Source: an uncultured Gammaproteobacteria bacterium (GTDB lineage: Bacteria; Patescibacteriota; Microgenomatia; Levybacterales; UBA12049). Taken from it: a stretch of 64,000 bases of DNA. Of the stretch, positions 9,605-25,386 are shown piece by piece (the stretch's first letter is position 1; each line of letters begins with the position of its first letter). The translations under genes were made by a program, and so were the position numbers. The notes under the pieces are model-generated. The model was not told where the DNA came from, did not search any database, and saw only the letters and a program-made list of their open reading frames with translations. The stretch lies in contig CAZFRF010000001.1 of assembly GCA_964521295.1 (NCBI GenBank), positions 705,016 to 769,015 of the forward strand, read 5' to 3'.

Positions 9605-10356
9605 TTTAATTTAACTGGAACTAAAGACATAAACGTGGTTCCTTTTCTATTCAAAGCAGGGATTGTTGTGGAGAATTTCCAGCCATTGCCTTGCTCATAG
9701 CAATCGCTTGGGGAAGCAGTAATGATTTTGTCTGTTGCTGGATCAGCGTCTACTATAACAAAGGTGTGAGCGCAAGAATTGCAACCAATCCAGTTCTTGG
9801 TAGAGGCAAGTATATACCAGCCCGCATTCGTAAAGCTACGAATCTGCATAATATCGGTGTGGGTTAAGGGTTTACCATCAACGGTATATTCACCCATGAT
9901 ATCCATTTGAGCTCTTTTGAGACCAACCGAGGAGAGAAAGCTTGGTTCAGTCATTTTTCGAGGACTAGATCCAACGCAGTCAATCCCCCCAGTACAGCTG
10001 CGGTTTCCCGGAAACCAAGCGATGCCCTTTTCTTCAAAAAGCCTAGATACAGTAACCGGGTTAGCTATGTTTGCATCAGATTGCTTTGCTTTTAGGCCAT
10101 ATGTCGCAAGAACCATAGCTACGCTTGATGGTCCACAACCAGAGCTTGCTATTGTGCCCGAATCGTATTTATTTGAATAATTAGACTGACAGTAAAATTT
10201 GAAATCTCCGTCTGCGTTTCCGCCAGAGCCGATGATAATTTCAAGGTCGGAAGATTGTGCAAAAACACGTTGAATAAGAAAAGCAGAGGAAAGGATTACT
10301 CCAACCAGGAATAGTATGGTAAAGACAGCAATTTTGTTTTTCATATTATCTGCCAC
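9601..10356 (-). CDS. Secreted peptidase C39-like (Peptidase_C39_2/CHAP-like papain-fold) protein, a putative cell-wall hydrolase of the T4SS-like locus
   Basis: Signal peptide, then SSGCGPSSVAMVLATYG, which closely matches the catalytic-Cys motif of the C39_2 family. A His-containing downstream motif (CAHTFVIV) follows. Confidence 0.5.
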   Translation of the reverse strand: MADNMKNKIAVFTILFLVGVILSSAFLIQRVFAQSSDLEIIIGSGGNADGDFKFYCQSNYSNKYDSGTIASSGCGPSSVAMVLATYGLKAKQSDANIANPVTVSRLFEEKGIAWFPGNRSCTGGIDCVGSSPRKMTEPSFLSSVGLKRAQMDIMGEYTVDGKPLTHTDIMQIRSFTNAGWYILASTKNWIGCNSCAHTFVIVDADPATDKIITASPSDCYEQGNGWKFSTTIPALNRKGTTFMSLVPVKLK

Positions 10357-11746
10357 TAATGGCTGGACAGCTATTATTACAATTATATCTTATATAGCTG
10401 CAGCTTGAAGCTTTATTGTTTTTTTCGCAAGTCCTTTGCTTCTCCCAGAGTTTTGCACATACGGGTTGGTCTTTGTATTTTTTAGTTCCGCACATGCATC
10501 TTGCGGTTCCCCAGTATTCAAAACTGTTGTCTTGTTGCTTGTTGGTCCAGATTGCATTTTGAATTTGTCTTTGCCATGTAACATCTCCTCTGTAGGAAAG
10601 CTTCTTCCAAGGCTGACCAGGGGGATTATTGCTGCACATTTGAAATCTTCCCCAAGTTCCTAGCGCAGCGCAGTTTCCGCTGGAATTATGATTTCCGGCA
10701 TCATGTCCATTTGGACTACCAGATTCGCAGTCTGCAAGATCAGACCAAAAGTCAACCATGGAGTCAGTAATTGGCTTATTTAAAGTATCTGCTATTACTT
10801 GCTTAAATTTTTTTTCTGTGTAGGTGCATTCAGGGTCGCCAAAATTTGCTGGTTTAAGTTGCTCTTTGAAAGGCGAAAGCTTGGTGTCTACCTCAATGAT
10901 GTTCATTATTCCACCATACTTATTGCAGGTCTTATCTGAAGGAGGGCTATCCATACCAGAGTACAGATCTCCTTCGGTGGTATCTATGTCATCGGTTGCC
11001 GTTACATCACCAAACCCACTTAACTTAAGAGAGACAGTTGTTGTTCCGTTCTTAACGCCAGGAGCAATTTTGTCAGAAATTGAGATTAAATAACTGTTGC
11101 CTGGACCCTTTTGTAGGGTACTTAGTTTCCAGCCATATCTAAATTGATTTTTAGCGCTAATTATTCCTCCAGAAGAAAGACTGTCGTATGCGGGATTTGT
11201 GCTATTTTTAGTTAAACTACTAAAGAACGCGGTGTTAATCGTGATATATACCCAGGCTTTATTTGGATCTACCTTTATTTTACTTTTATCAGCAAACACA
11301 AAGGCATACACGGTTATGTTTAAATTTCCTGTTTTGTTGTCTAGTACAGGGCAGTTCGTTCGAGAAGAGCTGCTGCAGCTAAGATATGCGTATCCACCAT
11401 TGAAGGTGAGTATTTTGGGTAGATTGGACGGAGGATTGTTTTGCGAGGATTCTGTTGTTTGTTGGGTAGTGCCTAATCCTCCTCCGCCGCCAAGTATGCT
11501 TAATAGCAGGGTGGTTACAAATAGAGCTACAAATACCCCTATTACTCCCCAAACCGCTGGAGAAAGTCCTGAGACAAGCGATTGAACGGTCTGTGCAGTA
11601 GAGTAAGCTCTTTGAGTGCTTTTAACAAATCTCCAGGCATTTCGTGCTTGTTTGGCTCTGTTGAGATTTTGTTCTAAAAACGATTTGTCATTTTGATTAG
11701 AGCCTTTATCTTCCTGAGCGTTTATTTTTATCTCATCGTCTTGCAT
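10346..11746 (-). CDS. Membrane-anchored protein with a C-terminal lysozyme-like/SLT (GH23-like) motif, a VirB1-like lytic transglycosylase candidate
   Basis: Cytoplasmic N-terminus, one TM followed by a Gly run, and a large Cys-rich ectodomain. CESGSPNGHDAGNHNSSGNCAALGTWGRFQM resembles the ES-x-NP...S-x-GA-x-GLMQ catalytic signature of SLT domains. Confidence 0.4.
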   Translation of the reverse strand: MQDDEIKINAQEDKGSNQNDKSFLEQNLNRAKQARNAWRFVKSTQRAYSTAQTVQSLVSGLSPAVWGVIGVFVALFVTTLLLSILGGGGGLGTTQQTTESSQNNPPSNLPKILTFNGGYAYLSCSSSSRTNCPVLDNKTGNLNITVYAFVFADKSKIKVDPNKAWVYITINTAFFSSLTKNSTNPAYDSLSSGGIISAKNQFRYGWKLSTLQKGPGNSYLISISDKIAPGVKNGTTTVSLKLSGFGDVTATDDIDTTEGDLYSGMDSPPSDKTCNKYGGIMNIIEVDTKLSPFKEQLKPANFGDPECTYTEKKFKQVIADTLNKPITDSMVDFWSDLADCESGSPNGHDAGNHNSSGNCAALGTWGRFQMCSNNPPGQPWKKLSYRGDVTWQRQIQNAIWTNKQQDNSFEYWGTARCMCGTKKYKDQPVCAKLWEKQRTCEKNNKASSCSYIRYNCNNSCPAISGR

Positions 11747-11748
11747 TG

Positions 11749-13530
11749 TTAAGCCTCCTTATTTTTCAGTATTTCTTGCGGGTTTGACGTAATCATTTCA
11801 TGCTCAAAAGGAGCTGCTACGATTTGTATGGCTACATGATTTTGTCCTGCGAAAAACAACCCTTCTCCAATATTGGCAGAGAGAAGTAGTTCTTTTTCAC
11901 CTTGAGTTAAGTAAAACACGTCTGAAACTAGGTCAATTTCTGATGGACTTTGCTTTAAAATCATTTGGATAGAAGAGTTAGACAAAACAGCCTTTCCATA
12001 GTCTGTGGAAAGGAAGTCCTGAACGTCCTGTGTGGCAGTAGTAAGCCCCAGGTAGTACTTTCTCGATCTTTTGGCAATAGAATACACAAATGAGGCAGAG
12101 TCTTCATATTTCATCATGTACCAGGCCTCATCTAGTATTAATAACCTTTTTTTTAGATCTTTTCTAACCTTTGTCCAAACAAAGTCTAAGATTATATGCA
12201 TCGCAATTGGCCTTAACTCCTCTTCTAGTCCGCGCAGGTTAAAAACGGTGAAGGGGTTAGAGATGTCAAAGTTTGACTGTTGGTTAAAAATCCCGGACAA
12301 AGAACCCTTGATAAATTTTTCAAGCATTAGGGCGAGTTCTTTGGCTTTTTCTTCTTCCATCCCAAGCAAGACTTTGTATAGATCCTCCATGATTGGCGGC
12401 GTCCTCTTTTGGGTGGATGGTTCAACCGTAATGCCTTTTTGCCTATATGTTTCAACAAGCGCTCTATCTAGTATTGCATCGTGGGCTGGGTCTAGTTTGC
12501 CTAGAACTATTTTTAATAATCCATGGAGACTAAGTATTTTGAGCCCCAGTTCGTTTTCGCCCTCTTCGTAGAGACCGGTTAAATCAAAGGGGTTAATTTT
12601 AATAGCCGATGAGGCATTAAAGCTAACTTGTTCTCCGCCTAGGGTCTGAGCTAATTTTTCATACTCTCCTTCGGGATCGATGATTATGACTTCTGTTCCA
12701 AAGATAAACTGGCGCATTGCTTCAAGTTTAATTAAGTAAGATTTTCCGGATCCAGATTTGCCGAGAACAACCTCGTTGGCATTTTCTAGGCTAAATCTGT
12801 CAAAGATAATTAAGGATCCGTTTTGTTGATTTATTCCATACATTATTCCTCTATCTTGAGTAAGGGTTGCAGATGTAAAAGGAAAAGTAGACGCAAGTGA
12901 GGTCGTGTCCATATTGTGGGTAATCAATAGTTTATCTGATGCAATTGGAATTGAAGACTTAAACCCATCCTCCATTTGTAACGTGGCAGTTTTGGATAAA
13001 AGGAGGAGGGAGCTAAGCGTTGAATTTAGATTTTTTGACGCTTCGTGTAGTTCCTCTAATGAATCAGATGCAAGGGATACGTATAGGCTAACCTGGAAAA
13101 ATCTTTCCATCCCTTTTGCTAATTCTTCTTGTACGCTAAGCGCGTCTTCCAACGATGCTTGAACAGTAGGGTTTGTCTCTAATCCTTCTTCCTCGTCGGA
13201 GGCAAGGGTCGCTTCCATTTCAGCAATTTTTCTTCTTAAATCAGATAAAACATCTGGCGTCGAGGAGGGGTAGATGAACATAGAGACGTTCATTGAATGA
13301 TCAAAGTTTATTAGTGGTGCAAGCCAGTTTGGATTAACATACCTTGGGTAGCCTGCTATAAACAAAGTTTTGTGAACCTTTTCTCCTACTCGAATATTGT
13401 TGAAATCAACCTCAACAGATGAAGGGGCAATAATATCTGGGATTGAGTTTGTCCCTCTTTGTAGCGCTTGGAGTCGAGGATCTGTTACGACCTGATTTGT
13501 TTCTTTATTTTGCTTTTTTTTGCCAAACAT
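11749..13530 (-). CDS. VirB4/TrbE/CagE-family T4SS ATPase (C-terminal ATPase domain)
   Basis: Walker A GKSGSGKS and Walker B LLILDEAW. The DEAW motif is characteristic of VirB4. Confidence 0.8.
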   Translation of the reverse strand: MFGKKKQNKETNQVVTDPRLQALQRGTNSIPDIIAPSSVEVDFNNIRVGEKVHKTLFIAGYPRYVNPNWLAPLINFDHSMNVSMFIYPSSTPDVLSDLRRKIAEMEATLASDEEEGLETNPTVQASLEDALSVQEELAKGMERFFQVSLYVSLASDSLEELHEASKNLNSTLSSLLLLSKTATLQMEDGFKSSIPIASDKLLITHNMDTTSLASTFPFTSATLTQDRGIMYGINQQNGSLIIFDRFSLENANEVVLGKSGSGKSYLIKLEAMRQFIFGTEVIIIDPEGEYEKLAQTLGGEQVSFNASSAIKINPFDLTGLYEEGENELGLKILSLHGLLKIVLGKLDPAHDAILDRALVETYRQKGITVEPSTQKRTPPIMEDLYKVLLGMEEEKAKELALMLEKFIKGSLSGIFNQQSNFDISNPFTVFNLRGLEEELRPIAMHIILDFVWTKVRKDLKKRLLILDEAWYMMKYEDSASFVYSIAKRSRKYYLGLTTATQDVQDFLSTDYGKAVLSNSSIQMILKQSPSEIDLVSDVFYLTQGEKELLLSANIGEGLFFAGQNHVAIQIVAAPFEHEMITSNPQEILKNKEA

Positions 13531-14183
13531 TATTTTACCTCCTTTCCTTTTACAATCGCCTTACCCTCTGTTTCATGTTTGGGGGTAAGGGACATCTCAT
13601 TGAAAATGTCATAATAGAGCTTTATTAGCTTATTTCGATCTAATATTTCCGATTTTAAGCCAATTCGTCCAAGTTGATTTCGAACGGTTTCTGCTTTAGA
13701 TCTTAAAACAGGCCCTGCTTGTTTGGAAAACTCTTCTAGAGCGCTAAGTCCAGCTACTTGCTTTGCTCCAAACACGCCTTTTTCTAAAGAAGAATAGGGA
13801 ACAACAATATAAAAGTTCTTGTCTAGTACGGAATTAACCTTAATTAGTTCTGCGACAAAATTTCTATACATCTGAATATGCTGAGAGAAGTTAGGGTTAA
13901 GTGTTTTTCTGGCCTCTTCGGTTAGCGCGTCCAGATAGCTTGAGATATTTAAAAGCTTGCTTCTTACAACTATTTGAATAGAAAAAGAAAGAGAGTTTAA
14001 CAGAGCTGAGTATGCATAGATTTTGGCATTTTGTTCTTGTTCCGATAGTAAATCGAAGTTAGTTGCTTCTACTTTTATTACCATGCAGGCGTTTCCGCCT
14101 GGAAGCACAACTACGTCATCAAATATATCTTGAATCTCAATAAATTTTTGGGTTGAGTTTGGTTTTATGCTTGCTTTGCCCAT
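13530..14183 (-). CDS. Hypothetical 217 aa soluble protein translationally coupled to VirB4. It is probably the detached N-terminal domain of VirB4.
   Basis: Its stop overlaps the VirB4 ATG (TAATG). 217 + 593 = 810 aa, the canonical VirB4 size. No TM. Confidence 0.35.
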   Translation of the reverse strand: MGKASIKPNSTQKFIEIQDIFDDVVVLPGGNACMVIKVEATNFDLLSEQEQNAKIYAYSALLNSLSFSIQIVVRSKLLNISSYLDALTEEARKTLNPNFSQHIQMYRNFVAELIKVNSVLDKNFYIVVPYSSLEKGVFGAKQVAGLSALEEFSKQAGPVLRSKAETVRNQLGRIGLKSEILDRNKLIKLYYDIFNEMSLTPKHETEGKAIVKGKEVK

Positions 14184-15361
14184 TAGTTAAAAAGAGACCT
14201 CCTTAGCTCTTCTCTTTGATCGGTAGAGATAACCTCAATAGGCATAATTACTTCTCCTTTGGTTTCAAATGCAACAGAGTCAAATCGATTTTGTCCTTTT
14301 GGATCCTCAAAACTAATGGTATATTTCCCATTGTTAAGAGCTGTGGCTGAGGCAAAATGTCCTAGGGCATTAGTTTTAAAAGCTCTTACAGCGTTTCCTT
14401 CTTCATCTTTAACCTCGACTAAAACATTAGCTAAGGGGTTTCCCCTAGGATCTTTAATGATTCCCGTAAGTAAGTTGGGGAATTCAGGGACACTTGGAAG
14501 TCCTACACTTTGGCTCATTGAATGAGGAATACTTCTTACAAATTTAGTCTCTTTTGCAGGAGCAGTCGTAGCAGTAGAAGGAGTAAAAACAGGCGAGCTT
14601 GAGCTATTCATATTTTTTTGAATCTCAATTAGTTTTTTCTCTAATTCTTCTTTTTGAGTTAGCATCTCATTCATTTGTTTTTGCAATTCCAAGACCTTTT
14701 GATGTGCGTCTAAAAGAGCTTGGGGATCAGCTTGGGCCTGTTTTTGTTCATTTACCTTTGCTTGAGCAAGCTCTTTTTCGAGTAAAGCAGCTGTTTTAAT
14801 TAATTCTTGGTTTTCTTCTGGCGCTTTAATTTTCTCTGGAGCTTGGGAAGAAGGCATTGGTTGGGCCACGGGTTGTCCTTGCCTAGCGTAGTAGTGCGAG
14901 GGAATACTGTTGGGAACGTTAATGTTGGAAGTTTGAGCTGAATATGCATTTAGATTTTGAAAAAATACAGATTCTTTTTGATCTAGTTTATTTTTTGGCT
15001 TATTTTTTATAAAGTTTTTAAACTGTTGGCTAGCTAGGGCATTTGGGTCTTCTTGTTTTGCCCATAGGCTTGCTCCCTGTTTTTGATATATATATTGAGT
15101 TGGGCTAAACACGGCTTTAAAAAAATGGGCAATCATTAAGTCTAAAGGCCGCCCAGATACTTGTAAAAAGGCAAAGCCTGCGCCAATTGCTCCAAAAGCT
15201 ATAGCTAAAGGAGCCTTGATAACAAAAGGCAAGGGCAAGATGTATGTAATCCAACCAATAATAGCCCCAGCTGCAATATAGGCAAACTGCTTTACCGTCA
15301 TGTCTCCAATTAGCTTGAATTGAAAACCTGTAATGTCTTGTGGAATAGGATGATTTTCCAT
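14183..15361 (-). CDS. Two-TM, VirB3-like membrane protein fused to a long coiled coil and a C-terminal CarboxypepD_reg-like beta-sandwich domain
   Basis: Two N-terminal TM helices lie directly upstream of VirB4, the usual VirB3 position. A Gln/Glu/Lys-rich coiled coil follows. The C-terminal region GIIKDPRGNPLANVLVEVKDEEGNAVRAFKTNALGHFASATALNNGKYTISFEDPKG matches the CarboxypepD_reg pattern. Confidence 0.4.
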   Translation of the reverse strand: MENHPIPQDITGFQFKLIGDMTVKQFAYIAAGAIIGWITYILPLPFVIKAPLAIAFGAIGAGFAFLQVSGRPLDLMIAHFFKAVFSPTQYIYQKQGASLWAKQEDPNALASQQFKNFIKNKPKNKLDQKESVFFQNLNAYSAQTSNINVPNSIPSHYYARQGQPVAQPMPSSQAPEKIKAPEENQELIKTAALLEKELAQAKVNEQKQAQADPQALLDAHQKVLELQKQMNEMLTQKEELEKKLIEIQKNMNSSSSPVFTPSTATTAPAKETKFVRSIPHSMSQSVGLPSVPEFPNLLTGIIKDPRGNPLANVLVEVKDEEGNAVRAFKTNALGHFASATALNNGKYTISFEDPKGQNRFDSVAFETKGEVIMPIEVISTDQREELRRSLFN

Positions 15362-15463
15362 AATAAATACCTCTATTTCTAGTATTTACCGTGAAAAATA
15401 TCATTTCAAGGTTATCAAAATATAACAAACCTCAAATTAAGTGGATCTACTTTTGCGTGAAAA

Positions 15464-15784
15464 CTATTTAAAGGAAAAATTATCTAAACCAGAAACTCCA
15501 GTTATGCGACCAATTAAATTGACGATAGCAAAAGAAGCAAAAATTAAAATCAGCCCAAGTAGAGAGTAGAGGAAGGTTTTTCTTGCAGAGTCAATGGATT
15601 TTGAATCTCCTCCTGAATTGATAAATTTAATTCCTGAATAAATTATCATAAATAGAGCAATAGTTCCTGCGCCAGCAAGTAGCCAATTTACAGCTAGGGC
15701 TATTAAATCAGGAATACAAGTAAGGTTGGGGATACCATGTCCTCTGCCTGCCATTTGAGTGCAAGACCAATCCATCTTAAACAT
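15464..15784 (-). CDS. VirB2/TrbC-like T4SS pilin (two-TM hairpin), paralog 1
   Basis: 106 aa. A hydrophobic helix, then the loop YSGIKFINSGGDSKSIDSARKTF, then a second helix. The same architecture is seen in the three neighbours. Confidence 0.5.
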   Translation of the reverse strand: MFKMDWSCTQMAGRGHGIPNLTCIPDLIALAVNWLLAGAGTIALFMIIYSGIKFINSGGDSKSIDSARKTFLYSLLGLILIFASFAIVNLIGRITGVSGLDNFSFK

Positions 15785-15828
15785 AATAAATATACAATAT
15801 CATTCCTAAGTAGTTTTAACAATAGATT

Positions 15829-16251
15829 TTAACGGCCGATTGATGGAAGGACAAAGAAGTTTGCTGTTTGTCCAGGAATAAAGAATCCAAGTAAGATATT
15901 CAATATAAAGTAGGATAAGAATATTATGACTAAGCCAATTACGGCTGCAATAATATGCTCTCTCGCTGCTCCAACTGCAGATTTGTCTCCACCTGAGGTT
16001 AACCATTTAAATCCACCCCAGATTAGGTAGAAAAGAGCAACAATTATTGAGATAACAAAGATAAAAGAAATGATTGCTGGAATAGCATTACTAACGGAGA
16101 ATCCACATAAAGGATTAAATTGCCCAGCTGGGCAAAGCTCAACTCTGGTTGCTCCTGCTGGAACAGTTGGGGTAGGGGTAGCCGCCATTGCTACGTTAGC
16201 TAATAATAAATATGCTGGCGTTAGGACTGAGGTAGATAATAATTTTTTCAT
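15829..16251 (-). CDS. VirB2-like T4SS pilin with signal peptide, paralog 2
   Basis: Signal peptide ending AMA, a Cys pair in the N-terminal segment, and the core LYLIWGGFKWLTSGGDKSAVGAAREHII between two TM helices. Confidence 0.5.
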   Translation of the reverse strand: MKKLLSTSVLTPAYLLLANVAMAATPTPTVPAGATRVELCPAGQFNPLCGFSVSNAIPAIISFIFVISIIVALFYLIWGGFKWLTSGGDKSAVGAAREHIIAAVIGLVIIFLSYFILNILLGFFIPGQTANFFVLPSIGR

Positions 16252-16294
16252 GTATATATTTAGACTAAACAGTTTTTAAATAATTGTCAAGAGT

Positions 16295-16810
16295 CTATTT
16301 ACAGCTATATGCAATAGCTCCGCCGGTAACGTTAGATGCTTGACATGTTTGTCCTGCGTTACAGCATTTTGGTCCACAAGCAAACTTTGACCCTGTACAT
16401 GTTGCACCGCTTGTTGTGCTATTCGTTATTGAGGGTATGGTAAAGTTGCTCAAACTAAAGCCTGGGATAAAGAAGTTTATTACAATATTTAGGATTAAAT
16501 AAGATAAAAAGATAACAATAAGGCCAATGATTGATGCAATAATATGCTCTCTCGCTGCTCCAACTGCAGATTTGTCTCCACCTGAGGTTAACCATTTAAA
16601 TCCTCCCCAGATTAAATAAAGCAGGGCAACAATTGTTGAGAGAACGAAGATAAAGTTTATAAAACTAGCTATAAGTTTCGCAGGGTCTCCCGCTGCATTA
16701 CAGATTACACCAAAGCTTCCAGTTGGGCATAATGTGCTAGCTGCAAAAACAGGAGAGGTTAATCCAAAAAAGCTGAAGGAAAAGATAAGGCCTGTGAGTA
16801 GTTTTTTCAC
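16295..16810 (-). CDS. VirB2-like T4SS pilin with signal peptide and a C-terminal Cys-rich extension, paralog 3
   Basis: Its core is identical to paralog 2. The 16541-16610 nt stretch is nearly identical to 15951-16020. It adds a tail with 7 Cys. Confidence 0.5.
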   Translation of the reverse strand: MKKLLTGLIFSFSFFGLTSPVFAASTLCPTGSFGVICNAAGDPAKLIASFINFIFVLSTIVALLYLIWGGFKWLTSGGDKSAVGAAREHIIASIIGLIVIFLSYLILNIVINFFIPGFSLSNFTIPSITNSTTSGATCTGSKFACGPKCCNAGQTCQASNVTGGAIAYSCK

Positions 16811-16851
16811 CTTAAATAAATCTTAGGCACAATTTACTGGTTTGTCAAGTC

Positions 16852-17199
16852 CTAGGGTAGTTTTAGTAAGTTTACCCCAAAATAGACGCCTAAAATATTT
16901 AGTATAAAGTAGGAAATAAAAACAATTACTAATCCTACAATCGTAAATCCGATTCTTTGTCTTGCCTGTTGAACTTTTTGCTTGTCTCCAGCGGAGGTCA
17001 TCCATTGCCAGCCTGAGTAAATTAATATTATTAATCCAAAAACAATAGCAAAGAGCGTGATAAATGCAAGGCCTGTTTTAATTGCCTTAATTAAAGTATC
17101 AAGTCCTCCCGTCGGCATACCACTTACACTTTGAACCTTTATTGGTTGCTTATCTGGGCCCATTATTGAGAGCGCAATTAGTTTCATGTTATTTTCCAA
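16852..17199 (-). CDS. VirB2-like T4SS pilin, paralog 4
   Basis: Core motif IYSGWQWMTSAGDKQKVQQARQRI flanked by two TM helices. Confidence 0.45.
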   Translation of the reverse strand: MENNMKLIALSIMGPDKQPIKVQSVSGMPTGGLDTLIKAIKTGLAFITLFAIVFGLIILIYSGWQWMTSAGDKQKVQQARQRIGFTIVGLVIVFISYFILNILGVYFGVNLLKLP

Positions 17200-18379
17200 A
17201 TCCAGGCAATCTTAGTATGTCATATCCAATAGTTTGTAATATCACTAAGGAAAAGATTGTAAAAAGAAGACCGATAATGGCAGCGGTTAGTTGGTCTTTC
17301 GCTCCTTGTATTTTTTCAGGATTTCCCTGCGAAACCATGAGTCTGTAGCCTGAAAAAATAATTAAAATAGTGGCAATTCCGCCAATGACGCCAAATAAAA
17401 TTCCCATTAAAGTTTTTATAAACTCTCCAGGTCCACCTGTAAAGTTTATTTTTATGCCTAGGCCTGTTTGTATTTGGCAATTCTTATTTTTTACCTGATC
17501 TTCGCTACAAATGGGGGTAGGCGTGTTGTATCTGTATTTTGGACTTTCAAATGTAATTGCGGATTTAACAACAGAGCACTTTTCCTGTCTATCGTTAGCG
17601 CATCTGCATTCGTAGTTGCTGCATACGCTGGTGGATTTTCCGCAGGTACCGGAGGTTATGCATCCTTTTAGACATTTTCCTGATATGCAGGCATCTCCTA
17701 ATGATCCTCCCGTTTGGCAGTAGTAGCCAGAAGCGCAATTTCCTCTAGGCTTAGAGTTGCCTGCTCCGTTTTGACTGCACATGTTGTAGTCTTCGGAGTC
17801 TGGAGTGATCCTGCAATCTTGATTATTTCCTTGTCCATCTCCTGGGGGAGGCTTGGGCTCCGAGCCATCTGAATTATTAATAGTTAGGCTGCTTTTGCAG
17901 ATAGCAAATCCTTCGTCATCGCAGGTTGCTGGAGACGTGTTTTGTCCAAATACAGCATTGCAGAGCTTAAGAGTGTATTTGCCGCTTTTAAGAGTGTTAA
18001 TGTCTTGTAGGGTGTCTGTACGGAAAACCAAAGGCTCCCCAGATTGCTTGTCTTCCACCCACGTTGCACATCCTAAGCCAAACTGATCTGACAGGTTGGG
18101 GTTTGGAGTGCAAAACTCCCCGGTAGCATCCCCAATGATAACTGCGAAGTACTGGTTTCCATTAGAATCATTATCCGAAATATTGTTAAAAGTAAGCTCT
18201 TTAACAGATCCTGGATTTATTTTGGAGTTTTTAGTATTAGGGTTAAAAGAAAAAGAGCATTCGCTTATTGCAAGAGCCTGATCTTTTAAAACAAAGAATA
18301 GGCAAGAAACAAAAAAGAATAATAAAAAAATTTTTCTTAACACCTTTTTATCGTAACGCAACAATGAGGTAAATTTCAA
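17189..18379 (-). CDS. Large secreted Cys-rich protein with a C-terminal VirB2-like pilin module, a putative pilus-associated adhesin or minor pilin
   Basis: Signal peptide, then about 300 aa with more than 30 Cys. The C-terminal 75 aa (IFSGYRLMVSQGNPEKIQGAKDQLTAAIIGLLFTIFSLVIL) repeat the pilin hairpin architecture. Confidence 0.45.
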   Translation of the reverse strand: MKFTSLLRYDKKVLRKIFLLFFFVSCLFFVLKDQALAISECSFSFNPNTKNSKINPGSVKELTFNNISDNDSNGNQYFAVIIGDATGEFCTPNPNLSDQFGLGCATWVEDKQSGEPLVFRTDTLQDINTLKSGKYTLKLCNAVFGQNTSPATCDDEGFAICKSSLTINNSDGSEPKPPPGDGQGNNQDCRITPDSEDYNMCSQNGAGNSKPRGNCASGYYCQTGGSLGDACISGKCLKGCITSGTCGKSTSVCSNYECRCANDRQEKCSVVKSAITFESPKYRYNTPTPICSEDQVKNKNCQIQTGLGIKINFTGGPGEFIKTLMGILFGVIGGIATILIIFSGYRLMVSQGNPEKIQGAKDQLTAAIIGLLFTIFSLVILQTIGYDILRLPGFGK

Positions 18380-18380
18380 G

Positions 18381-19739
18381 TTAACTTGTGAATCTGAATC
18401 CCCTGCCTTTGATTGTTTGGATTAGTTTAGGCTCATTTGGATTATCTTCAATTTTTTTTCTAAGTCGGAAGATTAATTGATCTACGGCTTGATCTGTGAC
18501 TCCTAAAACTGTTTTTTGATCTCCCCAAACAGCGCTAATTACGTCTTCTTTTGTGACAAGAGTGTCTTTTTGGGTAATTAGGAATTTTAGTAATTTATAT
18601 TCTAAACTGGTTAGGAGTTCAGAAATGATGGTCTCGCCTTTTAATATTTCTCCTCTTTCATTTAAATTAATTTTGGTAAGTTCTGGGGGAATAGATTTAT
18701 CTTTAATATAATCAGCAAGTAGAGAAATGGTTAATAAATTATTTTTAACCAATCCTACGCTTTCTAGGTATTCAGCATTGTCTATTTTCCCTTTCATGAT
18801 CATAATTTGCTCTGATGGAGAGAGAAAGTTCCAGATTGCAAACAATGCACTTCTTATTGGTTTTTGTTCAATTAAATATTTTCTAAGTTCTAGTTTATTT
18901 TTAAAATTTTGTCCAGAGGAGAGGAGGGTCTCTGCGGAAAGGCGCATTAGATTACTGTGTCCTCCTGTTAGCTCGAAAACATTTTCTCTAAGTTCCTGAT
19001 CTATTTTTTTACCTGTAATTTTTTCTAAATATTCTAATCTAAAATTAATTCCAATTTCATTATAAATAGGTAGGTAAATAATTTTTCCGGCAACAAAATC
19101 ATAAAAATCTGCAAATAAAGTGGGTTCTAGAATTTCTTCGAGTGGACGGTTTAAGCTAAAAACTGCAGAAAACTTATACTTAGCTCTATTTCTGAGAATT
19201 CTTAAATTTGCAAAAAATTCGCTATCTAATACGCTGATATAATCTTCAAACCTATCAAAAAGCAAAACAATTGTTAGTCCCTTTTCTAGGGCTAAATAAT
19301 CTATTGCCTTTTTTAATCCAGCAAAGATAACTAAATCATCCTTAATCTGCATAGACTCCTTAAAAATTTTATTAATTTCTTCATAATCTTTTTGCATTTG
19401 CCTTTCTCTTAGCGAATCGATAATTCCTAGAAATATAAATTTAGTTGTTTCAGCAAGGGGCTTTTTGCGAATTTCAGAAAAATTTAAATAGACAAAATGG
19501 AAAAGCTTGTTGTCTTCATCCAAATGTTTTACGCGAACATTTTTGTTGTAGGACAAAAGTCCTAAAATATTAGATCTCCCAACTCCAGGAAGGGAAACAA
19601 TTTGACAAGAATTCCCTTCTTTTATGTAGTTTAGTATTTTTTCTATTTCTTGATCTCTTGTTCCATCTGGATAGAGGGCTTCAAAGTGTTGATCCATAAG
19701 TTTATTGTAATTTTTTTGTAAGGCAAATATCAAGCTCAA
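18381..19739 (-). CDS. Transcriptional regulator with an N-terminal ATPase-like domain and a C-terminal OmpR/PhoB-type winged helix
   Basis: C-terminus ...VWGDQKTVLGVTDQAVDQLIFRLRKKIE...IQTIKGRGFRF is the Trans_reg_C signature. A degenerate P-loop-like SLPGVGRSN lies near the N-terminus. Confidence 0.5.
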   Translation of the reverse strand: MSLIFALQKNYNKLMDQHFEALYPDGTRDQEIEKILNYIKEGNSCQIVSLPGVGRSNILGLLSYNKNVRVKHLDEDNKLFHFVYLNFSEIRKKPLAETTKFIFLGIIDSLRERQMQKDYEEINKIFKESMQIKDDLVIFAGLKKAIDYLALEKGLTIVLLFDRFEDYISVLDSEFFANLRILRNRAKYKFSAVFSLNRPLEEILEPTLFADFYDFVAGKIIYLPIYNEIGINFRLEYLEKITGKKIDQELRENVFELTGGHSNLMRLSAETLLSSGQNFKNKLELRKYLIEQKPIRSALFAIWNFLSPSEQIMIMKGKIDNAEYLESVGLVKNNLLTISLLADYIKDKSIPPELTKINLNERGEILKGETIISELLTSLEYKLLKFLITQKDTLVTKEDVISAVWGDQKTVLGVTDQAVDQLIFRLRKKIEDNPNEPKLIQTIKGRGFRFTS

Positions 19740-19769
19740 AAGGCATTTTAGGCTTAAACTGCAAGTGTT

Positions 19770-22700
19770 ATGAGAGTAGAGATATATAGAAGATTAAATC
19801 AAGCTAATCCAGAATTGACAATAGGCTCAGTTAAACCTAAACTGGAATCAGGAGATATTTTTATGGCAAAAGTAGATGGTGGTGGAGAGCAGCCAGGTCA
19901 AATTCCAGAGAAAAAAATAACACAAGAAATTGTTCCTCCTCAGGGTAGAGTTGGAAGGGCAAGGCGGGCATTGAGTTCTCGAGCAGAGCCTCCTCGAATT
20001 GCCCATGCATTGCTGGATGATCCATCAGAGCCAATTGTGCCCCCCGTCGCTCCCTTGTCTAGTCCAGATATTCCCGTAATTCCCGACGAAGCTCCAGGGG
20101 TTCCAGAGCATGGAGCCCCTATCCCAGCAGCTCCCGAAGAGGGATCTATTCCAGAGCAAATAAGGTTAGCTTGGGAATCGGCAGTACCAATTTCTGATCA
20201 AGCATCTGAGACCGAAAGAAAAGTAAGAGATGTAATTATAGAGGCGGCAGTGCTAAGAGGGTTTAGTCCCGTGGATCAAGCGGAGACTGTCAGAAGATTA
20301 AAAAGTTATTTAAGAACTAAGCAGACAGGAAGAGAGGCGGGTTTTGATGAGATTCCAGAAAATGAAGAGAGAATAACTAAAGAAGTACTTAAGGAAATAA
20401 TCAAAGTTATGACGAGTGGATTTAGCTTTACCGAAGAGGAGCTCGATGCTTACTCCGGTATGATAGAAAGTCTTGATACTAATGCCCCTGATTATGTAGA
20501 GAGAGCAAAAAAAATAATTCAAGTAATCCATTCTAAGCAAGAAGAATACGCAATTGATGAAGATACTAATTTGAACGAGGAGCAGGGAGAGGAAGGTTTT
20601 TATGAAGAGTCTGCAGAGGGACGATCTCAAATTGAGGGTGAAGAGCGGGTCTCACTTTTCGATGGTGTTTATAGAGCTCTGGATGCGTTAGAGGATGCTC
20701 CAGATGATGCAACGAGAGAGAGTATGGAGAGAGGAATACGCAGGGCTTTAGCTACGGACTTAACGGTTAATGGCGCATTAATTGAATCTTCTGCAGTCAG
20801 GCCCGGGGAAGGTGTAAGGTTAAGGAATGGAAGATGGGTTCATCCAGAAGATTACGAAAGATATAGGGCAACTTGGGCAAGTATAACAGCAGATCCGAAC
20901 CTTGATTCTATGCGCGCAAGGGCAAAGAAATTTATTAATGAACTAGAATTCAAGCTAGACGAGAGGGGTCGAGAGGTTGCCGGAGACAGAATTCAAAACG
21001 TTCAAGATCTTGCAAAATTTATTGTTACAAAACAAAATGCTGAAATATATGGAGTAGGTAAGAGGTTTGAGCTTGTAGATTCTGAAGGAAATTTTCATCC
21101 AGAAAACTTTTTAATTTGGCTTAGGGAACAATCAATTGCAATTCATAACGATAACAAGAATGATCAGCTTAGTCCATTGACATCTGTAGTTATTGAAACC
21201 ACATTCAGAACCATTTCTATTTATATGATGACACGTTTTAGAGAGCAGTATTTTAGAGATAAAAAAAGCGGCGAGGTTATGCATGATCTCGCAAATAGGG
21301 TTCTGATGGAGGCTTTTATGTTTGGAGTTTTCAGAAATTCAGATATTGCATATAGGTCAGTTATGGGTGAGGACAAAAGATTACCTGAGGCTTTGCCGCA
21401 AATTCATTCCAGAAATGATTTGACCAGTTCAGACAATTGGCAATATATGCTAAATGCTCCAGCTGAATTTGGCACTGAACATGATATGCGAGTTGGCGAA
21501 GCTGTAATGTTTTGTAACGATTTTTATTACAACATTTCAGATAAAGAGGAATTAATTAAGCTATTGGGCGACCGCCCGATTACAAGGCAAGATTTTGAAG
21601 ATGCTTTATTGCTACTTAGCGGTAAACATGAATGGGAACGAGACCAAATTAAATTTGATGCTCATTTTGATCCTGAGGATCCAAATGGACCTTTTTATCT
21701 AAACGATGATAAACAAAGAGTTTATTTCTTTATGGACTCTAATGGACAAATGCAAGACACTGTAAATATTGATGCTTTTATTGATGGGTTAAATACCTTC
21801 AATATGGCAACGCCTAAGACTAGCACGGTAAATTTATTAAGGGAAATTGTAAGAGTTAAAGCGGCTCAGAAGTATGGGTTAAACGATGGAATAGCTAGGG
21901 GAGAAAAAGCAGAAGAGAAAAAAAGACAGTATGACGAGGCAGTTGCGCGTCATAAAGTCATTCTGAGAAGAATTACTCGAGATGGTCAAGAACTGAGTCA
22001 AGCTGAAATTGATAGAAGAGCAAAAGATAGGGCAAACTCAGAATTTAAAAAGGAACAGAGCGCAGACAGAACAAATCTTGAATATGCTGAAACAACCTCT
22101 TGGATTTTTCAAAGACCCTATGGAATTGCAGCTAGAAACGATACTTTACGAAGGGGCTTTGATGCAGCGACGAAATTATATTTATATGACTATATTCTTA
22201 GGCAATCAAAAGAAGGAACTGGTGGTCCGATAGGTATTCCAGAAATGATGGGAATCTTTAGGCTTTTGAGCCCAGATCTAGTAGAGGGTTTACTTACTGA
22301 GTCAGGGGTTAGTCCAAGACAGTTAATGCTTCAAATTAGAGAGGTAGATTTGATGCCAGGAGGTACCCCAGAGCAAGAAGCTGAGAAAGCTAAGAAAAAA
22401 GCAGAAATATTGTCACATTTAAGATTTGCTGAAAGAGCTGAGATGGATTTCACATCAAACCAGCAATCTAGAGGATTTCAAATATACCATTCCTTCACGG
22501 AAGGAGATGATCTTGATTTACACGATGTTATAACCCATAGCTTCTGGGAAGGAATAAAAGTAAAACTGAGTAAGGCCGAAGAGGTTGTAAAAGATAAATG
22601 GATGAAGCCTGTGAGATATTTGCTTTCTTCAAATAATGCTTTGAATTTTGCTGCAAAAGCAAGAATGCTAGATTTTGTTAAAACGGGTAAATTAAAGCCT

Positions 22701-23303
22701 GCAGCAGCTCCAGAGGCTATTGTTCAAGAAAGAAATGCTTTAAATCAGCAAAGAGTGAAGGAAGGTAAGGCTACATTGCCACAGGTGGCAATGCCCAAGC
22801 CTGCTCCTATATATTCTACGGTTACTCTTGCTGAAAAAATGCTGAGTCCGGATGTTACAGACAGGGATTATATATCAGATGACGGTAAGGTAATAAAGAT
22901 TAGGGAGGCTTTAATGGACCCGGCAAAATATGAGCAAAATAGAGCCAATGTTAGAAAGGCATTAGCAAAAAATGCCATTACAACAAGAATAGCATTCGTT
23001 TTGAAATTTCATAGAGAATTGTATGGATTAGGAGAAAGATGGGGCTATGAAAGAGTTCAGGCGCTTTACCATTATCTTCACAGAATAAGAGAATGGGAGC
23101 CAGTTGAGGGTAAGCCAGGTCGGGTAAAGGAAAATCCCGAAAAGGGTTTTTTCTCTCACCATGATCTAGAATGGATGAGAGGGCTTAGTAATACTAAAGA
23201 GTATAATATGATCATGGAAGAGCTTGGTAAGCAAGGTGGCGTAGCAGCTCTTGGCGCAGGAAAAGATGCATTGTCAGCGTTTATACAAGCTATATTAAAA
23301 TAA
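19770..23303 (+). CDS. Large (1177 aa) acidic hydrophilic protein with a proline-rich N-terminal region and no TM or recognisable catalytic motif. Hypothetical, possibly a T4SS substrate.
   Basis: Long uninterrupted ORF. PxxP-rich tract near residues 60-130. No Walker motifs and no His-triad relaxase motif were seen. Local GC is above the window average. Confidence 0.4.
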   Translation: MRVEIYRRLNQANPELTIGSVKPKLESGDIFMAKVDGGGEQPGQIPEKKITQEIVPPQGRVGRARRALSSRAEPPRIAHALLDDPSEPIVPPVAPLSSPDIPVIPDEAPGVPEHGAPIPAAPEEGSIPEQIRLAWESAVPISDQASETERKVRDVIIEAAVLRGFSPVDQAETVRRLKSYLRTKQTGREAGFDEIPENEERITKEVLKEIIKVMTSGFSFTEEELDAYSGMIESLDTNAPDYVERAKKIIQVIHSKQEEYAIDEDTNLNEEQGEEGFYEESAEGRSQIEGEERVSLFDGVYRALDALEDAPDDATRESMERGIRRALATDLTVNGALIESSAVRPGEGVRLRNGRWVHPEDYERYRATWASITADPNLDSMRARAKKFINELEFKLDERGREVAGDRIQNVQDLAKFIVTKQNAEIYGVGKRFELVDSEGNFHPENFLIWLREQSIAIHNDNKNDQLSPLTSVVIETTFRTISIYMMTRFREQYFRDKKSGEVMHDLANRVLMEAFMFGVFRNSDIAYRSVMGEDKRLPEALPQIHSRNDLTSSDNWQYMLNAPAEFGTEHDMRVGEAVMFCNDFYYNISDKEELIKLLGDRPITRQDFEDALLLLSGKHEWERDQIKFDAHFDPEDPNGPFYLNDDKQRVYFFMDSNGQMQDTVNIDAFIDGLNTFNMATPKTSTVNLLREIVRVKAAQKYGLNDGIARGEKAEEKKRQYDEAVARHKVILRRITRDGQELSQAEIDRRAKDRANSEFKKEQSADRTNLEYAETTSWIFQRPYGIAARNDTLRRGFDAATKLYLYDYILRQSKEGTGGPIGIPEMMGIFRLLSPDLVEGLLTESGVSPRQLMLQIREVDLMPGGTPEQEAEKAKKKAEILSHLRFAERAEMDFTSNQQSRGFQIYHSFTEGDDLDLHDVITHSFWEGIKVKLSKAEEVVKDKWMKPVRYLLSSNNALNFAAKARMLDFVKTGKLKPAAAPEAIVQERNALNQQRVKEGKATLPQVAMPKPAPIYSTVTLAEKMLSPDVTDRDYISDDGKVIKIREALMDPAKYEQNRANVRKALAKNAITTRIAFVLKFHRELYGLGERWGYERVQALYHYLHRIREWEPVEGKPGRVKENPEKGFFSHHDLEWMRGLSNTKEYNMIMEELGKQGGVAALGAGKDALSAFIQAILK

Positions 23304-25228: not shown

Positions 25229-25301
25229 GTGCCCGTAGTTCAACGGATAGAACACCTGGTTGCGGTCCAGGCGGTTGGAGGTTCAATTCCTCTCGGGCAT
25301 A
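25229..25301 (+). tRNA. tRNA-Arg, anticodon GCG
   Basis: Hand-folded cloverleaf: acceptor GTGCCCG/CGGGCAT, D stem GTTC/GAAC, anticodon stem CCTGG/CCAGG, loop TTGCGGT, T arm GGAGG-TTCAATT-CCTCT. Confidence 0.6.
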
Positions 25302-25302
25302 C

Positions 25303-25386
25303 GGAGGGTTCGCATAGTGGCCAATTGCACGAGTTTCGAAAACTCGAGGACTTAGTCCTCCGCAGGTTCGAATCCTGCACCCTCCG
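25303..25386 (+). tRNA. tRNA-Ser, anticodon CGA (class II, long variable arm)
   Basis: Acceptor GGAGGGT/ACCCTCC, anticodon stem-loop CGAGT-TTCGAAA-ACTCG, T arm GCAGG-TTCGAAT-CCTGC, discriminator G. Confidence 0.65.

What the first reader, a model, noticed from the sequence alone, without database searches (positions are those of the whole stretch)
17189..18379. Pilin module fused to a 300-aa Cys-rich ectodomain, a candidate pilus tip adhesin
The C-terminal 75 aa reproduce the two-helix pilin architecture of the neighbouring genes. A signal peptide and a large domain with more than 30 cysteines precede it: Asn/Gly/Ser-rich, with knottin- or EGF-like spacing CxxxxC...CxC. Fusing an adhesin-like, disulfide-rich domain to a pilin is what a minor or tip pilin would look like. 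It is a candidate host-recognition determinant.
Basis: inference. Interest (0 to 1): 0.6.

Follow-up and report, generated by a model that had tools for sequence, protein, structure and literature searches.

The report
Secretion-system pilin carrying a swappable cysteine-rich head
This gene from an ultra-small Patescibacteria (Levybacteria-like) bacterium fuses a conserved type IV secretion (VirB2-like) pilin to a large, disulfide-rich outer domain that is replaced wholesale between related genomes. That makes it a good but unproven candidate for the part of the pilus that recognises the host cell.

Summary
The ORF is real: 17189-18379, minus strand, 396 aa from TTG, or 384 aa from the GTG used in the database.

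**Anatomy**
- A Sec-type signal peptide.
- A 276-aa ectodomain with 20 cysteines (21 in the whole ORF, not more than 30).
- A C-terminal two-helix module that passes Pfam's threshold for PF18895 T4SS_pilin.

**Context**
- It is the first of five pilin genes upstream of PrgI/VirB3-like and VirB4 genes, next to dnaN and dnaA. This is the published Patescibacteria T4SS layout.
- This "lead" pilin is the 5'-most pilin gene in 74 of 74 complete related loci.
- An N-terminal region of at least 150 aa occurs in 69 of 78 lead pilins and in 6 of 218 other pilins.

**Variability**
- In a fully collinear relative, the pilin module is 98.8% identical (dN/dS 0.01). About 800 bp encoding the ectodomain are not alignable.
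- Relatives carry fn3, PKD or Kelch/DUF2341 heads instead.

**Verdict**
- The fusion and its outside location are well supported.
- A role as tip adhesin or host-recognition element is plausible but inferred.
- EGF or knottin identity is unsupported.
- This is a new variant of a known kind.

The parts
17189..18379 (-). Whole ORF of the lead long pilin: 396 aa from TTG, stop codon included.
   Evidence: Identical to database protein P0001 over its 384 aa.
18341..18343 (-). Alternative GTG start, giving a 384-aa protein. It is probably the true start.
   Evidence: The NCBI call P0001 starts here. Homologues begin MxRKI.
18269..18379 (-). Signal peptide, residues 1-37 of the 396-aa ORF. The predicted cleavage is after ALA.
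   Evidence: Hydropathy and sequence. Read by rule, not with a predictor.
17876..18268 (-). Head domain, residues 38-168: a beta-sandwich with 6 Cys.
   Evidence: AlphaFold2 gives 7 strands, pLDDT mostly 70-86. Foldseek against the PDB gives only generic Ig/FN3/cupredoxin-like hits, E>=0.015. The six Cys are invariant in P0003, P0118 and P0119.
17816..17875 (-). Pro/Gly-rich linker, residues 169-188 (NSDGSEPKPPPGDGQGNNQD).
   Evidence: pLDDT below 50.
17576..17815 (-). Cys-rich region, residues 189-268. Module A is 189-236 with 6 Cys. Module B is 237-268 with 6 Cys.
   Evidence: Cys positions. The Cys of module A are mostly invariant in the three relatives (five of six; P0001 Cys219 is absent from P0118), while module B is variable. 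The region is not modelled and has no Pfam match.
17432..17575 (-). Conserved junction, residues 269-316: NTPTP, then the C291-x9-C301 loop, then a small beta-hairpin. It corresponds to the mature N-terminus of a short pilin.
   Evidence: C279 and C289 (P0001 numbering) are invariant or nearly invariant in 67 family members. The junction is 90% identical to L003. Three of the four short pilins of the window also have a C...C loop before helix 1 (16852-17199 has none).
17216..17431 (-). Pilin hairpin: helix 1 (residues 317-349), loop SQGN, helix 2 (residues 354-388).
   Evidence: PF18895 at 36.2 bits, above the 26.6 cut-off. AlphaFold2 pLDDT 80-91. 98.8% identical to L003 with dN/dS 0.01.
17192..17215 (-). 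C-terminal tail LRLPGFGK. It carries the family-wide [IL]L-x-[LI]-PGF motif 0-2 residues from the end.
17529..18331 (-). Cassette with no DNA similarity to the otherwise collinear relative L003. It runs from about codon 17 (inside the signal peptide) to about codon 284.
   Evidence: blastn shows collinear blocks of about 84% identity on both sides and a gap here. The gap is 803 bp in the window and 914 bp in L003. No protein similarity over the first 240 residues.
15464..17199 (-). Four short pilin paralogues: 16852-17199, 16295-16810, 15829-16251 and 15464-15784. The first overlaps the long pilin by 11 nt.
   Evidence: PF18895, family HMM. Their modules are 22-30% identical to the lead module.
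11749..15361 (-). T4SS core genes: PrgI/VirB3-like with a CarboxypepD_reg domain (14183-15361), TraC-like/TrsD-like N-domain protein (13530-14183), and VirB4 ATPase (11749-13530).
18381..19739 (-). 452-aa protein with a C-terminal OmpR-type winged helix (Trans_reg_C), directly upstream of the lead pilin.
   Evidence: It holds the same position in the loci, and in 36 of 64 testable GTDB loci.

Best explanation
The gene encodes the lead member of a VirB2-like pilin array belonging to a chromosomal Patescibacteria type IV secretion system.

**Proposed mechanism**
1. The protein is exported by Sec and its signal peptide is cut off.
2. The 276-aa ectodomain folds outside the membrane and is stabilised by up to ten disulfides. 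It consists of a beta-sandwich head, a Pro-rich linker, two 6-Cys modules and a conserved 2-Cys loop.
3. The C-terminal helical hairpin sits in the membrane with its short basic loop on the cytoplasmic side, as VirB2-type propilins do.
4. The VirB3/VirB4 machine extracts the hairpin and co-assembles it with the short pilins encoded downstream.
5. A 30-kDa head on every subunit would crowd a VirB2-type filament. The lead pilin therefore most likely enters in few copies as a minor pilin, at the distal end or sparsely along the fibre, and presents a variable binding head to the host cell surface.
6. The head is exchanged as a cassette between lineages while the pilin anchor is kept.
7. These systems have no VirB5, so the lead pilin may also take over VirB5's role as tip or nucleator.

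**Shown:** the anatomy, the family, the genomic context, the fixed lead position, and the contrast between a hypervariable head and a conserved anchor.

**Inferred:** the topology, disulfide bonding, incorporation into a pilus, tip position, and adhesion or host recognition.
For: - **Pilin identity.** PF18895 scores above its cut-off, and four paralogues follow. The hairpin is modelled at pLDDT 80-91. NCBIfam's Mbov_0395 pilin-like conjugal transfer family matches at E 2.7e-7, below its cut-off.
- **T4SS context.** PrgI, a TraC-like N-domain protein and a VirB4 of the CD1110 family (388.7 bits, cut-off 325) lie next to dnaN and dnaA. This layout is published for Patescibacteria (PMC12102498).
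- **Conserved lead position.** The order regulator, long pilin, short pilins, then (where the contig reaches them) PrgI and VirB4 holds in all 7 loci fetched by exact protein look-up, 6 contigs and 1 shorter duplicate (L004 shows no PrgI/VirB4 within 10 kb). The lead type is the 5'-most pilin gene in 74 of 74 complete GTDB loci.
- **Fusion is specific to the lead pilin.** An N-region of at least 150 aa occurs in 69 of 78 lead pilins and in 6 of 218 other pilins. Bare lead pilins of 138-163 aa also exist, so the ectodomain is an add-on.
- **Outside location.** There is a signal peptide, Cys are enriched ten-fold, and the Cys count is even in 95 of 107 ectodomains. CPR genomes are enriched in an MdbA-like oxidoreductase with VKOR (bioRxiv 10.1101/335083).
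- **Exposure and variation.** Against the collinear relative L003, the pilin module is 98.8% identical with dN/dS 0.01. The ectodomain is not alignable at DNA or protein level.
- **Mosaicism.** Among family pairs whose pilin modules are at least 90% identical, 31% have no detectable ectodomain similarity. The only relatives of this ectodomain (about 30% identity) sit on pilin modules that are about 60% identical.
- **Binding-type heads.** Other members carry fn3, PKD, or Kelch with DUF2341.
- **Vacant tip role.** The reviewed literature reports no VirB5 and no PrgB-like adhesin for these systems (PMC12857230, PMC12102498).
Against: - No pilus has been seen for any Patescibacteria T4SS. Its existence is speculation in the literature (PMC12857230).
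- Fold search of the hairpin against the PDB returned nothing specific (all E>=1.3). Profile searches against solved structures found no VirB2, TraA or TrbC.
- This protein shows no PF04956 TrbC match, not even a sub-threshold one. Some relatives reach only E 5e-4.
- The Cys-rich half of the ectodomain could not be modelled, and no ligand-binding family was recognised in this protein.
- Nothing locates the protein at a tip rather than at a base, along the shaft, or in the cell membrane.
- The variability could reflect pressure from phages or grazers rather than host choice.
Confidence: 0.5

Rival explanations
1. The protein is a membrane-anchored surface protein or channel collar, not a filament subunit. 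As in other monoderm T4SSs, no extended pilus is made. The two-helix module only anchors the ectodomain beside the VirB3/VirB4/VirB6 channel. There it spans or binds the cell wall, or contacts the host at a tight cell-cell junction.
For: - Gram-positive-type T4SSs generally lack pili, and no pilus has been demonstrated here (PMC10633639, PMC12857230).
- Fold and sequence searches did not tie the hairpin to any solved pilus subunit.
- PrgI in this locus also carries an external Ig-like domain.
Against: - Arrays of 4-5 divergent VirB2-like genes are conserved, with a fixed lead gene. They are essential in S. epibionticum (PMC10633639). This is hard to explain for simple anchors.
- The hairpin is under very strong constraint: 98.8% identity and dN/dS 0.01.
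- A membrane-proximal 276-aa domain would barely clear a peptidoglycan layer. This last point is inference.
Confidence: 0.22
2. The protein is a precursor that is processed. The ectodomain is cut off near the NTPTP/C-loop junction and released as a soluble, variable exoprotein or effector. The freed hairpin then becomes an ordinary, possibly major, pilin.
For: - VirB2, TrbC and TraA propilins are all processed from long leaders (established knowledge).
- The junction reproduces the mature N-terminus of a short pilin: TPTP followed by a C...C loop.
- Bare lead pilins exist.
- The lead module is among the most conserved of the array.
Against: - There is no hydrophobic core or AxA site at the junction that would allow a second signal-peptidase cut (sequence).
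- The only protease-like match in the cluster is a sub-threshold Peptidase_C39_2 hit on the 251-aa ORF (18.2 bits, cut-off 24).
- A 280-700 aa leader has no precedent.
- Physical fusion in 69 of 78 species argues that linkage itself is selected.
Confidence: 0.1
3. The protein is a pilus terminator or basal anchor. It is the last subunit added at the base, and its bulky domain stops growth and ties the fibre to the cell wall. This would resemble PapH or the basal pilins of sortase pili.
For: - A bulky subunit used in low copy number fits a terminator as well as a tip.
- There is one lead gene per array in most loci.
Against: - A domain that binds the cell's own wall should be conserved. Here it is replaced between genomes whose other T4SS proteins are 90-99% identical.
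- The heads in relatives are lectin-like or adhesin-like, for example the Kelch propeller.
Confidence: 0.08
4. The anatomy is the same, but the variability is defensive rather than adaptive for host choice. The exposed head is a target of phages or predators, or a shield for the pilus, and it diversifies to escape them.
For: - Conjugative pili are classic phage receptors (established knowledge).
- Exposed parts are replaced wholesale. This also applies to the Cys-rich C-terminal tail of the third pilin.
- AbiEii-like genes sit inside the cluster in a relative.
Against: - Escape alone does not explain why a large head is kept in 69 of 78 species when bare lead pilins are viable.
- It does not explain why binding-type modules are recruited.
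- This pressure is compatible with, rather than exclusive of, an adhesin role.
Confidence: 0.1

Closest known systems
VirB2/TrbC/TraA conjugative pilins, including Pfam PF18895 T4SS_pilin
   Same: - A leader followed by two hydrophobic helices joined by a short basic loop.
- Encoded next to VirB3-like and VirB4 genes.
- PF18895 scores above its cut-off.
- Nine of 67 relatives give weak TrbC matches.
   Different: - Known pilins are about 70-120 aa when mature and carry no extra domain. Here 276 aa of disulfide-rich ectodomain sit between the signal peptide and the pilin.
- The module ends in a conserved LPGF motif.
- There is no detectable similarity to solved pilins and no homologue in 72,556 plasmids.
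Patescibacteria T4SS pilin arrays (Wang et al. 2023, PMC10633639; Quinonero-Coronel et al. 2025, PMC12102498)
   Same: - A chromosomal, MPF-FATA-like T4SS near dnaA, with no relaxase-type genes seen nearby.
- Tandem arrays of 2-11 divergent VirB2-like genes, especially in Microgenomatia.
- The window is a textbook example.
   Different: - Those papers treat the pilins as small proteins and report that no adhesins were detected.
- I found no description of a lead pilin with a fused, hypervariable ectodomain in the papers I could search.
VirB5 / TraC pilus-tip adhesin of Gram-negative T4SSs
   Same: The proposed role is the same: few copies at the distal end, contact with the target cell, and possibly nucleation of assembly. 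VirB5 is absent from these systems (PMC12857230).
   Different: - The two are not homologous. VirB5 is a separate helical protein, not a VirB2 fusion.
- No VirB5-type family matched.
- The resemblance is in proposed function only.
Type IV pilus minor pilins with large added domains (for example CofB and TcpB; from my own knowledge)
   Same: The design principle is shared: a pilin anchor plus a bulky domain, used in low copy number at the tip to initiate assembly and bind targets.
   Different: - It is an unrelated pilin fold with a different assembly machine.
- Those pilins have a class III signal peptide and place the extra domain C-terminal to the pilin.
- Here the signal is Sec type and the extra domain is N-terminal.
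Bartonella Trw T4SS with multiple variable TrwL (VirB2) and TrwJ (VirB5) copies (as reviewed in PMC12857230)
   Same: A conjugation-derived T4SS without a coupling protein. Its amplified, sequence-variable surface subunits are thought to set host-cell specificity.
   Different: Variation there comes from paralogue amplification of small pilins and VirB5. Here a whole ectodomain cassette is swapped on a single conserved pilin.

Membership tests
Pfam PF18895 T4SS_pilin | Profile score at or above the curated gathering cut-off (26.6 bits). | tested here: met
   36.2 bits, E 6.6e-9, residues 314-383 covering profile positions 2-70 of 71. All 67 aligned relatives also match.
Pfam PF18895 T4SS_pilin | Two long hydrophobic helices forming a hairpin with a short polar loop. 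| tested here: met
   AlphaFold2 helices 305-337 and 342-376 (P0001 numbering), pLDDT 80-91. Hydropathy peaks.
Pfam PF18895 T4SS_pilin | Encoded within a T4SS gene cluster that contains VirB3-like and VirB4 genes. | tested here: met
   PrgI, TraC-like N-domain protein and VirB4 lie 1.8-5.4 kb downstream on the same strand. The same order appears in related loci.
TrbC/VirB2 pilin (Pfam PF04956) | Profile score at or above the gathering cut-off (27.9 bits). | tested here: not met
   No PF04956 match for this protein at E<=0.1. The four neighbouring short pilins score 13.5-15.3 bits. Nine of 67 relatives reach E<=0.01, best 5e-4. Remote relatedness is plausible but not demonstrated here.
TrbC/VirB2 pilin (Pfam PF04956) | Structural match to solved conjugative pilins (TraA, VirB2, TrbC, CedA1). 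| tested here: inconclusive
TrbC/VirB2 pilin (Pfam PF04956) | Polymerises into an extracellular pilus. | not testable with these tools
   This needs microscopy or biochemistry. It has not been shown for any Patescibacteria T4SS (PMC12857230).
VirB5-type pilus tip adhesin | Sequence or fold membership in the VirB5/TraC family. | tested here: not met
   No such family in the Pfam or NCBIfam scans. The model shows a beta-sandwich plus hairpin, not the VirB5 helical fold. The analogy is functional only.
Type IV pilus (T4P) pilins and minor pilins | Class III signal peptide: a short basic leader, G at -1, then a hydrophobic helix with E at +5. | tested here: not met
   The N-terminus is MLRKIFLLFFFVSCLFFVLKDQALA|ISE. 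It has no G|F..xE motif and an A-x-A type site. No T4P pilin family matched.
EGF-like or knottin cystine-rich domains | Match to an EGF or knottin profile, or a modelled cystine-knot/EGF fold. | tested here: not met
   No such Pfam match at E<=0.1. The only PDB sequence hit was Delta-like 4 at E 6.5, which is noise. The region has pLDDT below 50, so its fold is unknown.
C-terminal sorting signals (PGF-CTERM/archaeosortase, LPXTG/sortase) | The motif is followed by a transmembrane helix and a basic tail. | tested here: not met
   LPGF lies 2 residues from the end with no helix after it. No sorting-signal model matched in NCBIfam.
Diversity-generating retroelement target, or pilE/pilS-type silent cassettes | A second, near-identical template or silent copy of the variable region nearby. 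| tested here: not met
   blastn (word size 7) and tblastn of the gene against the 64-kb window found no second copy beyond chance. bAvd-like genes lie in the clusters of relatives L001 and L004, but no reverse transcriptase was seen. Only part of the window was scanned for families.

The most novel reading that the evidence does not exclude
The lead pilin is the missing tip and nucleator of a VirB2-type pilus built by a monoderm T4SS. A ring of lead pilins would start the fibre in place of VirB5 and carry swappable heads that decide which host cell an ultra-small episymbiont can attach to. Head type would then predict host range across Microgenomatia, and head cassettes would move by recombination between lineages.
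Probability: 0.3. Interest if true: 0.8.

Novelty: new variant of a known kind. Interest (0 to 1): 0.6.

Why it matters
- The role of the essential T4SS of Patescibacteria is unknown, and no adhesin has been assigned to it.
- This is a conserved, fixed-position pilin whose outer domain is exchanged between otherwise near-identical loci. It gives a concrete, testable candidate for host recognition in a very large uncultivated bacterial group.
- It would also be the first VirB2-family pilin described with a fused ectodomain.
- It would suggest how a pilus tip can be built without VirB5.
- Practically, head type could serve as a marker for pairing these episymbionts with their hosts in metagenomes.

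Tried and rejected
2. **Fold identification of the ectodomain.** Only generic beta-sandwich hits appeared for the head. The Cys-rich half was not modelled.
3. **Sequence links to solved structures.** None found.
4. **Exhaustive search with the ectodomain alone.** Only 7 of 1.84 billion representative proteins matched. Two of them are weak matches to Ig-like repeat proteins. Strain-level dN/dS on the head is therefore impossible. The forced alignment with L003 is not meaningful.
5. **Silent cassettes or DGR template in the window.** None found.
6. **PGF-CTERM or sortase signal reading of the LPGF end.** Rejected, because no helix follows the motif.
7. **Type IV pilus reading.** Rejected, because there is no class III signal peptide.
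8. **Plasmid-borne homologues.** None found.
9. **Exact look-up of P0001's contig.** It was not on record, so the organism name rests on the relatives: Levybacteria/Levyibacteriota, Daviesbacteria and Microgenomates.
10. **Profile-profile comparison with verified VirB2, TraA and TrbC sequences.** Considered but not run.
Full report
**What is at the coordinates**

A 396-aa ORF runs from a TTG at 18379 to the stop at 17189 on the minus strand. The same protein is in the public collection as P0001. That entry is 384 aa and starts at the GTG 12 codons further in. Relatives start MxRKI..., so the shorter form is probably the real one. Either start gives the same signal peptide.

The protein has 21 cysteines, not more than 30. 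One lies in the signal peptide and 20 in the mature ectodomain. That is 7.2% Cys over 276 residues, against 0.70% in the other 56 ORFs of the window (binomial P about 2e-14). The ectodomain is also rich in Asn, Gly and Ser, each about 10%.

**Anatomy**

Residue numbers refer to the 396-aa ORF.

| Residues | Element | Evidence |
|---|---|---|
| 1-37 | Sec-type signal peptide ending ALA\|ISE | Read by rule |
| 38-168 | Beta-sandwich head with six Cys | AlphaFold2 pLDDT mostly 70-86 |
| 169-188 | Pro/Gly-rich linker | |
| 189-268 | Two 6-Cys modules | Not modelled, pLDDT below 50; no Pfam family at E<=0.1 |
| 269-316 | Conserved junction: NTPTP, a C-x9-C loop, a small beta-hairpin | |
| 317-388 | Two long helices | pLDDT 80-91 |
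| 389-396 | Tail LRLPGFGK | |

Foldseek placed the head only among generic Ig, FN3 and cupredoxin-like domains (E>=0.015). The six head cysteines are invariant, and those of the first module mostly so, in the only three proteins that share this ectodomain type: P0003, P0118 and P0119, at about 30% identity.

**The pilin module**

Residues 314-383 pass Pfam's curated threshold for PF18895 T4SS_pilin (36.2 bits against 26.6). The four ORFs directly downstream match the same family, three of them above the cut-off. A profile built from the family's C-terminal modules finds these five ORFs and nothing else in the window.

NCBIfam's Mollicutes ICE "pilin-like conjugal transfer protein" model also matches, at E 2.7e-7 but below its cut-off. 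The link to classical TrbC/VirB2 (PF04956) is weak. This protein gives no match, and some relatives reach E 5e-4.

Fold and sequence searches against solved structures gave nothing specific for the hairpin. I therefore file the protein under PF18895. Membership of the VirB2 superfamily is likely but was not demonstrated here.

**Context**

On the same strand, downstream, lie these genes:
- a PrgI/VirB3-like protein with an Ig-like CarboxypepD_reg domain;
- a TraC-like/TrsD-like N-domain protein;
- a VirB4 ATPase of the CD1110 family (388.7 bits, cut-off 325);
- three exported or membrane proteins of unknown family;
- then dnaN and dnaA.

Upstream lies a 452-aa protein with an OmpR-type winged helix. 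This is the chromosomal, origin-proximal, MPF-FATA-like T4SS with a VirB2-like pilin array that has been described for Patescibacteria, especially Microgenomatia (PMC12102498). In Southlakia epibionticum the pilin array is essential (PMC10633639). Those papers and a recent review (PMC12857230) say three things: the function of the system is unknown, a pilus is only suspected, and no VirB5 or PrgB-like adhesin was found. I found no description of pilins fused to large ectodomains in the papers I could search.

**A conserved lead pilin**

The full-length query retrieved 117 proteins. All have a C-terminal PF18895 module, and all are 225-652 aa long. The module is highly conserved and ends in [IL]L-x-[LI]-PGF within two residues of the C-terminus.

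Six longer contigs, plus one shorter duplicate of the first, fetched by exact protein look-up start in the same order: regulator, one long pilin, then two to four short pilins. Five of them continue with PrgI or a CarboxypepD_reg protein, the TraC-like N-domain gene and VirB4.

A scan of one genome per GTDB species found 180 stretches encoding relatives of the module. The 80 best are from Levybacteria/Levyibacteriota, Daviesbacteria, Microgenomates and unclassified Patescibacteria. In those loci:
- the LPGF-type pilin is the 5'-most pilin gene in 74 of 74 complete cases;
- the commonest array is the lead pilin plus three short pilins, in 47 of 74 cases;
- the N-terminal region of the lead pilin has a median of about 310 aa and a range of 25-711 aa;
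- that region is at least 150 aa in 69 of 78 lead pilins and in 6 of 218 other pilins.

Bare lead pilins of 138-163 aa exist. They consist of a signal peptide, the C-loop and the hairpin. The ectodomain is therefore an insertion between the signal peptide and the mature pilin N-terminus.

**Conserved anchor, swappable head**

Locus L003 is collinear with window 7201-20054. Its proteins are 90-99% identical for VirB4, PrgI, the regulator, dnaN and two of the short pilins.

Within the long pilin, the hairpin is 98.8% identical (dN/dS 0.01) and the junction is 90% identical. The 803 bp from inside the signal peptide to codon 284 (17529-18331) have no DNA or protein similarity to the 914 bp at the same place in L003.

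Across the family, 31% of pairs whose pilin modules are at least 90% identical have no detectable ectodomain similarity. The rest share about 39% identity over about 120 residues.

The relatives of the window's head sit on pilin modules that are only about 60% identical. The closest pilin module (P0002) carries an unrelated head. That mosaic pattern points to cassette exchange.

Other members carry fn3, PKD, CarboxypepD_reg or FlgD-Ig domains. In L077 the head is DUF2341 plus a Kelch propeller. Most heads match no Pfam family.

No silent copy or template repeat of the head exists in the window.

**Topology**

With a cleaved signal peptide the ectodomain is exported. Helix 1 then acts as a stop-transfer segment. 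The loop, which contains R, K and K, faces the cytoplasm. Helix 2 returns the short tail to the outside. This is the arrangement known for VirB2-type propilins (established knowledge).

In support, 95 of 107 family ectodomains have an even number of Cys. CPR genomes are also enriched in an MdbA-like oxidoreductase with VKOR (bioRxiv 10.1101/335083).

**Mechanism**

I think the most likely reading is a minor pilin that uses a conserved hairpin to enter the fibre built by the T4SS and displays a variable binding head. It would sit at the distal end or sparsely along the shaft. A 30-kDa head on every subunit would crowd a VirB2-type filament, in which the termini are on the outer surface (inference from published F- and T-pilus structures). 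Because VirB5 is absent, it may also stand in for VirB5. I put about 0.5 on this whole chain. The anatomy and family assignment are close to certain, while tip position and host recognition are inferred.

The rivals are:
- a membrane or channel-associated surface protein, with no pilus made (0.22);
- a processed precursor that releases the head (0.10);
- a basal terminator (0.08);
- variability driven mainly by phage escape (0.10), which is compatible with an adhesin role.

**Verdict**

The Cys count was wrong and the EGF/knottin suggestion is unsupported. The fusion and the outside location hold, the pilin belongs to a T4SS rather than to a type IV pilus, and the tip-adhesin role remains a hypothesis.

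The thing itself is a new variant of a known kind: a VirB2-like pilin with a fused, hypervariable, disulfide-rich ectodomain, conserved as the first gene of the pilin array in many Microgenomatia.

Noticed in passing
window 16295-16810 (-): The third pilin has a C-terminal extension of about 50 aa after the IPGF motif, with 6 Cys. Against L003 this tail is only 32% identical, while the pilin part is 67.5% identical, and blastn shows a gap at 16303-16470. In the GTDB loci, 31 of 218 non-lead pilins have C-terminal extensions of at least 40 aa, and 25 of these have at least 4 Cys.
   Followed up: partly
window 19770-23303 (+): A 1177-aa ORF is transcribed divergently from the regulator and pilin operon. 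It has no Pfam or NCBIfam match and no hydrophobic segment. It is very variable against L003: 31-76% identity in pieces, and 1353 aa there. A large opposite-strand ORF of 740-1353 aa lies upstream of the regulator in all seven loci fetched by protein look-up, directly adjacent in three of them.
   Followed up: partly
window 11749-14183 (-): VirB4 appears split into a 217-aa TraC-like/TrsD-like N-domain protein and a 593-aa ATPase. The stop and start share a base. The same split is seen in related loci.
   Followed up: partly
window 9601-11746 (-): The exported or membrane proteins downstream of VirB4 are also Cys-enriched against the 0.70% background: 3.0% in the 466-aa protein and 2.8% in the 251-aa protein. 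The 251-aa protein gives a sub-threshold Peptidase_C39_2 hit and may be a wall hydrolase or protease.
   Followed up: no
L001 5565-5948, 16262-16633 and 17784-18146; L004 8125-8490, 11425-11799 and 13077-13448: Small four-helix-bundle genes (PF05635 23S_rRNA_IVP, with bAvd-like hits) are interspersed in the T4SS pilin clusters of relatives. L001 also has AbiEii-like genes. No reverse transcriptase was seen in those loci, and no such genes were seen inside the window's cluster.
   Followed up: no
L066 5767-6258 and L077 969-3365 (same MAG, JAHIGH01): One genome bin carries both a bare lead pilin (163 aa) and a 798-aa lead pilin with DUF2341 and a Kelch propeller. Their pilin modules are very similar. 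Four other loci have two lead-type pilins in tandem.
   Followed up: partly
window 25229-28653 and 54074-54146: Five tRNA-Ser genes cluster within 3.4 kb. ARAGORN reads one of them with anticodon ACT (28465-28552), which is unusual. There is also a tRNA-Ile with anticodon TAT.
   Followed up: no
window 42202-43233 (+): A CvpA (Colicin_V) membrane domain is fused to a CAP (cysteine-rich secretory protein) domain. A CAP-domain membrane family was reported as nearly CPR-specific (bioRxiv 10.1101/335083).
   Followed up: no
L008, L011, L012 and many other GTDB loci: Many MAG records that carry this clearly Patescibacteria-type locus are titled "uncultured Gammaproteobacteria bacterium" (binchicken and SRP co-assemblies). 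The titles look like placeholder or wrong taxonomy.
   Followed up: no
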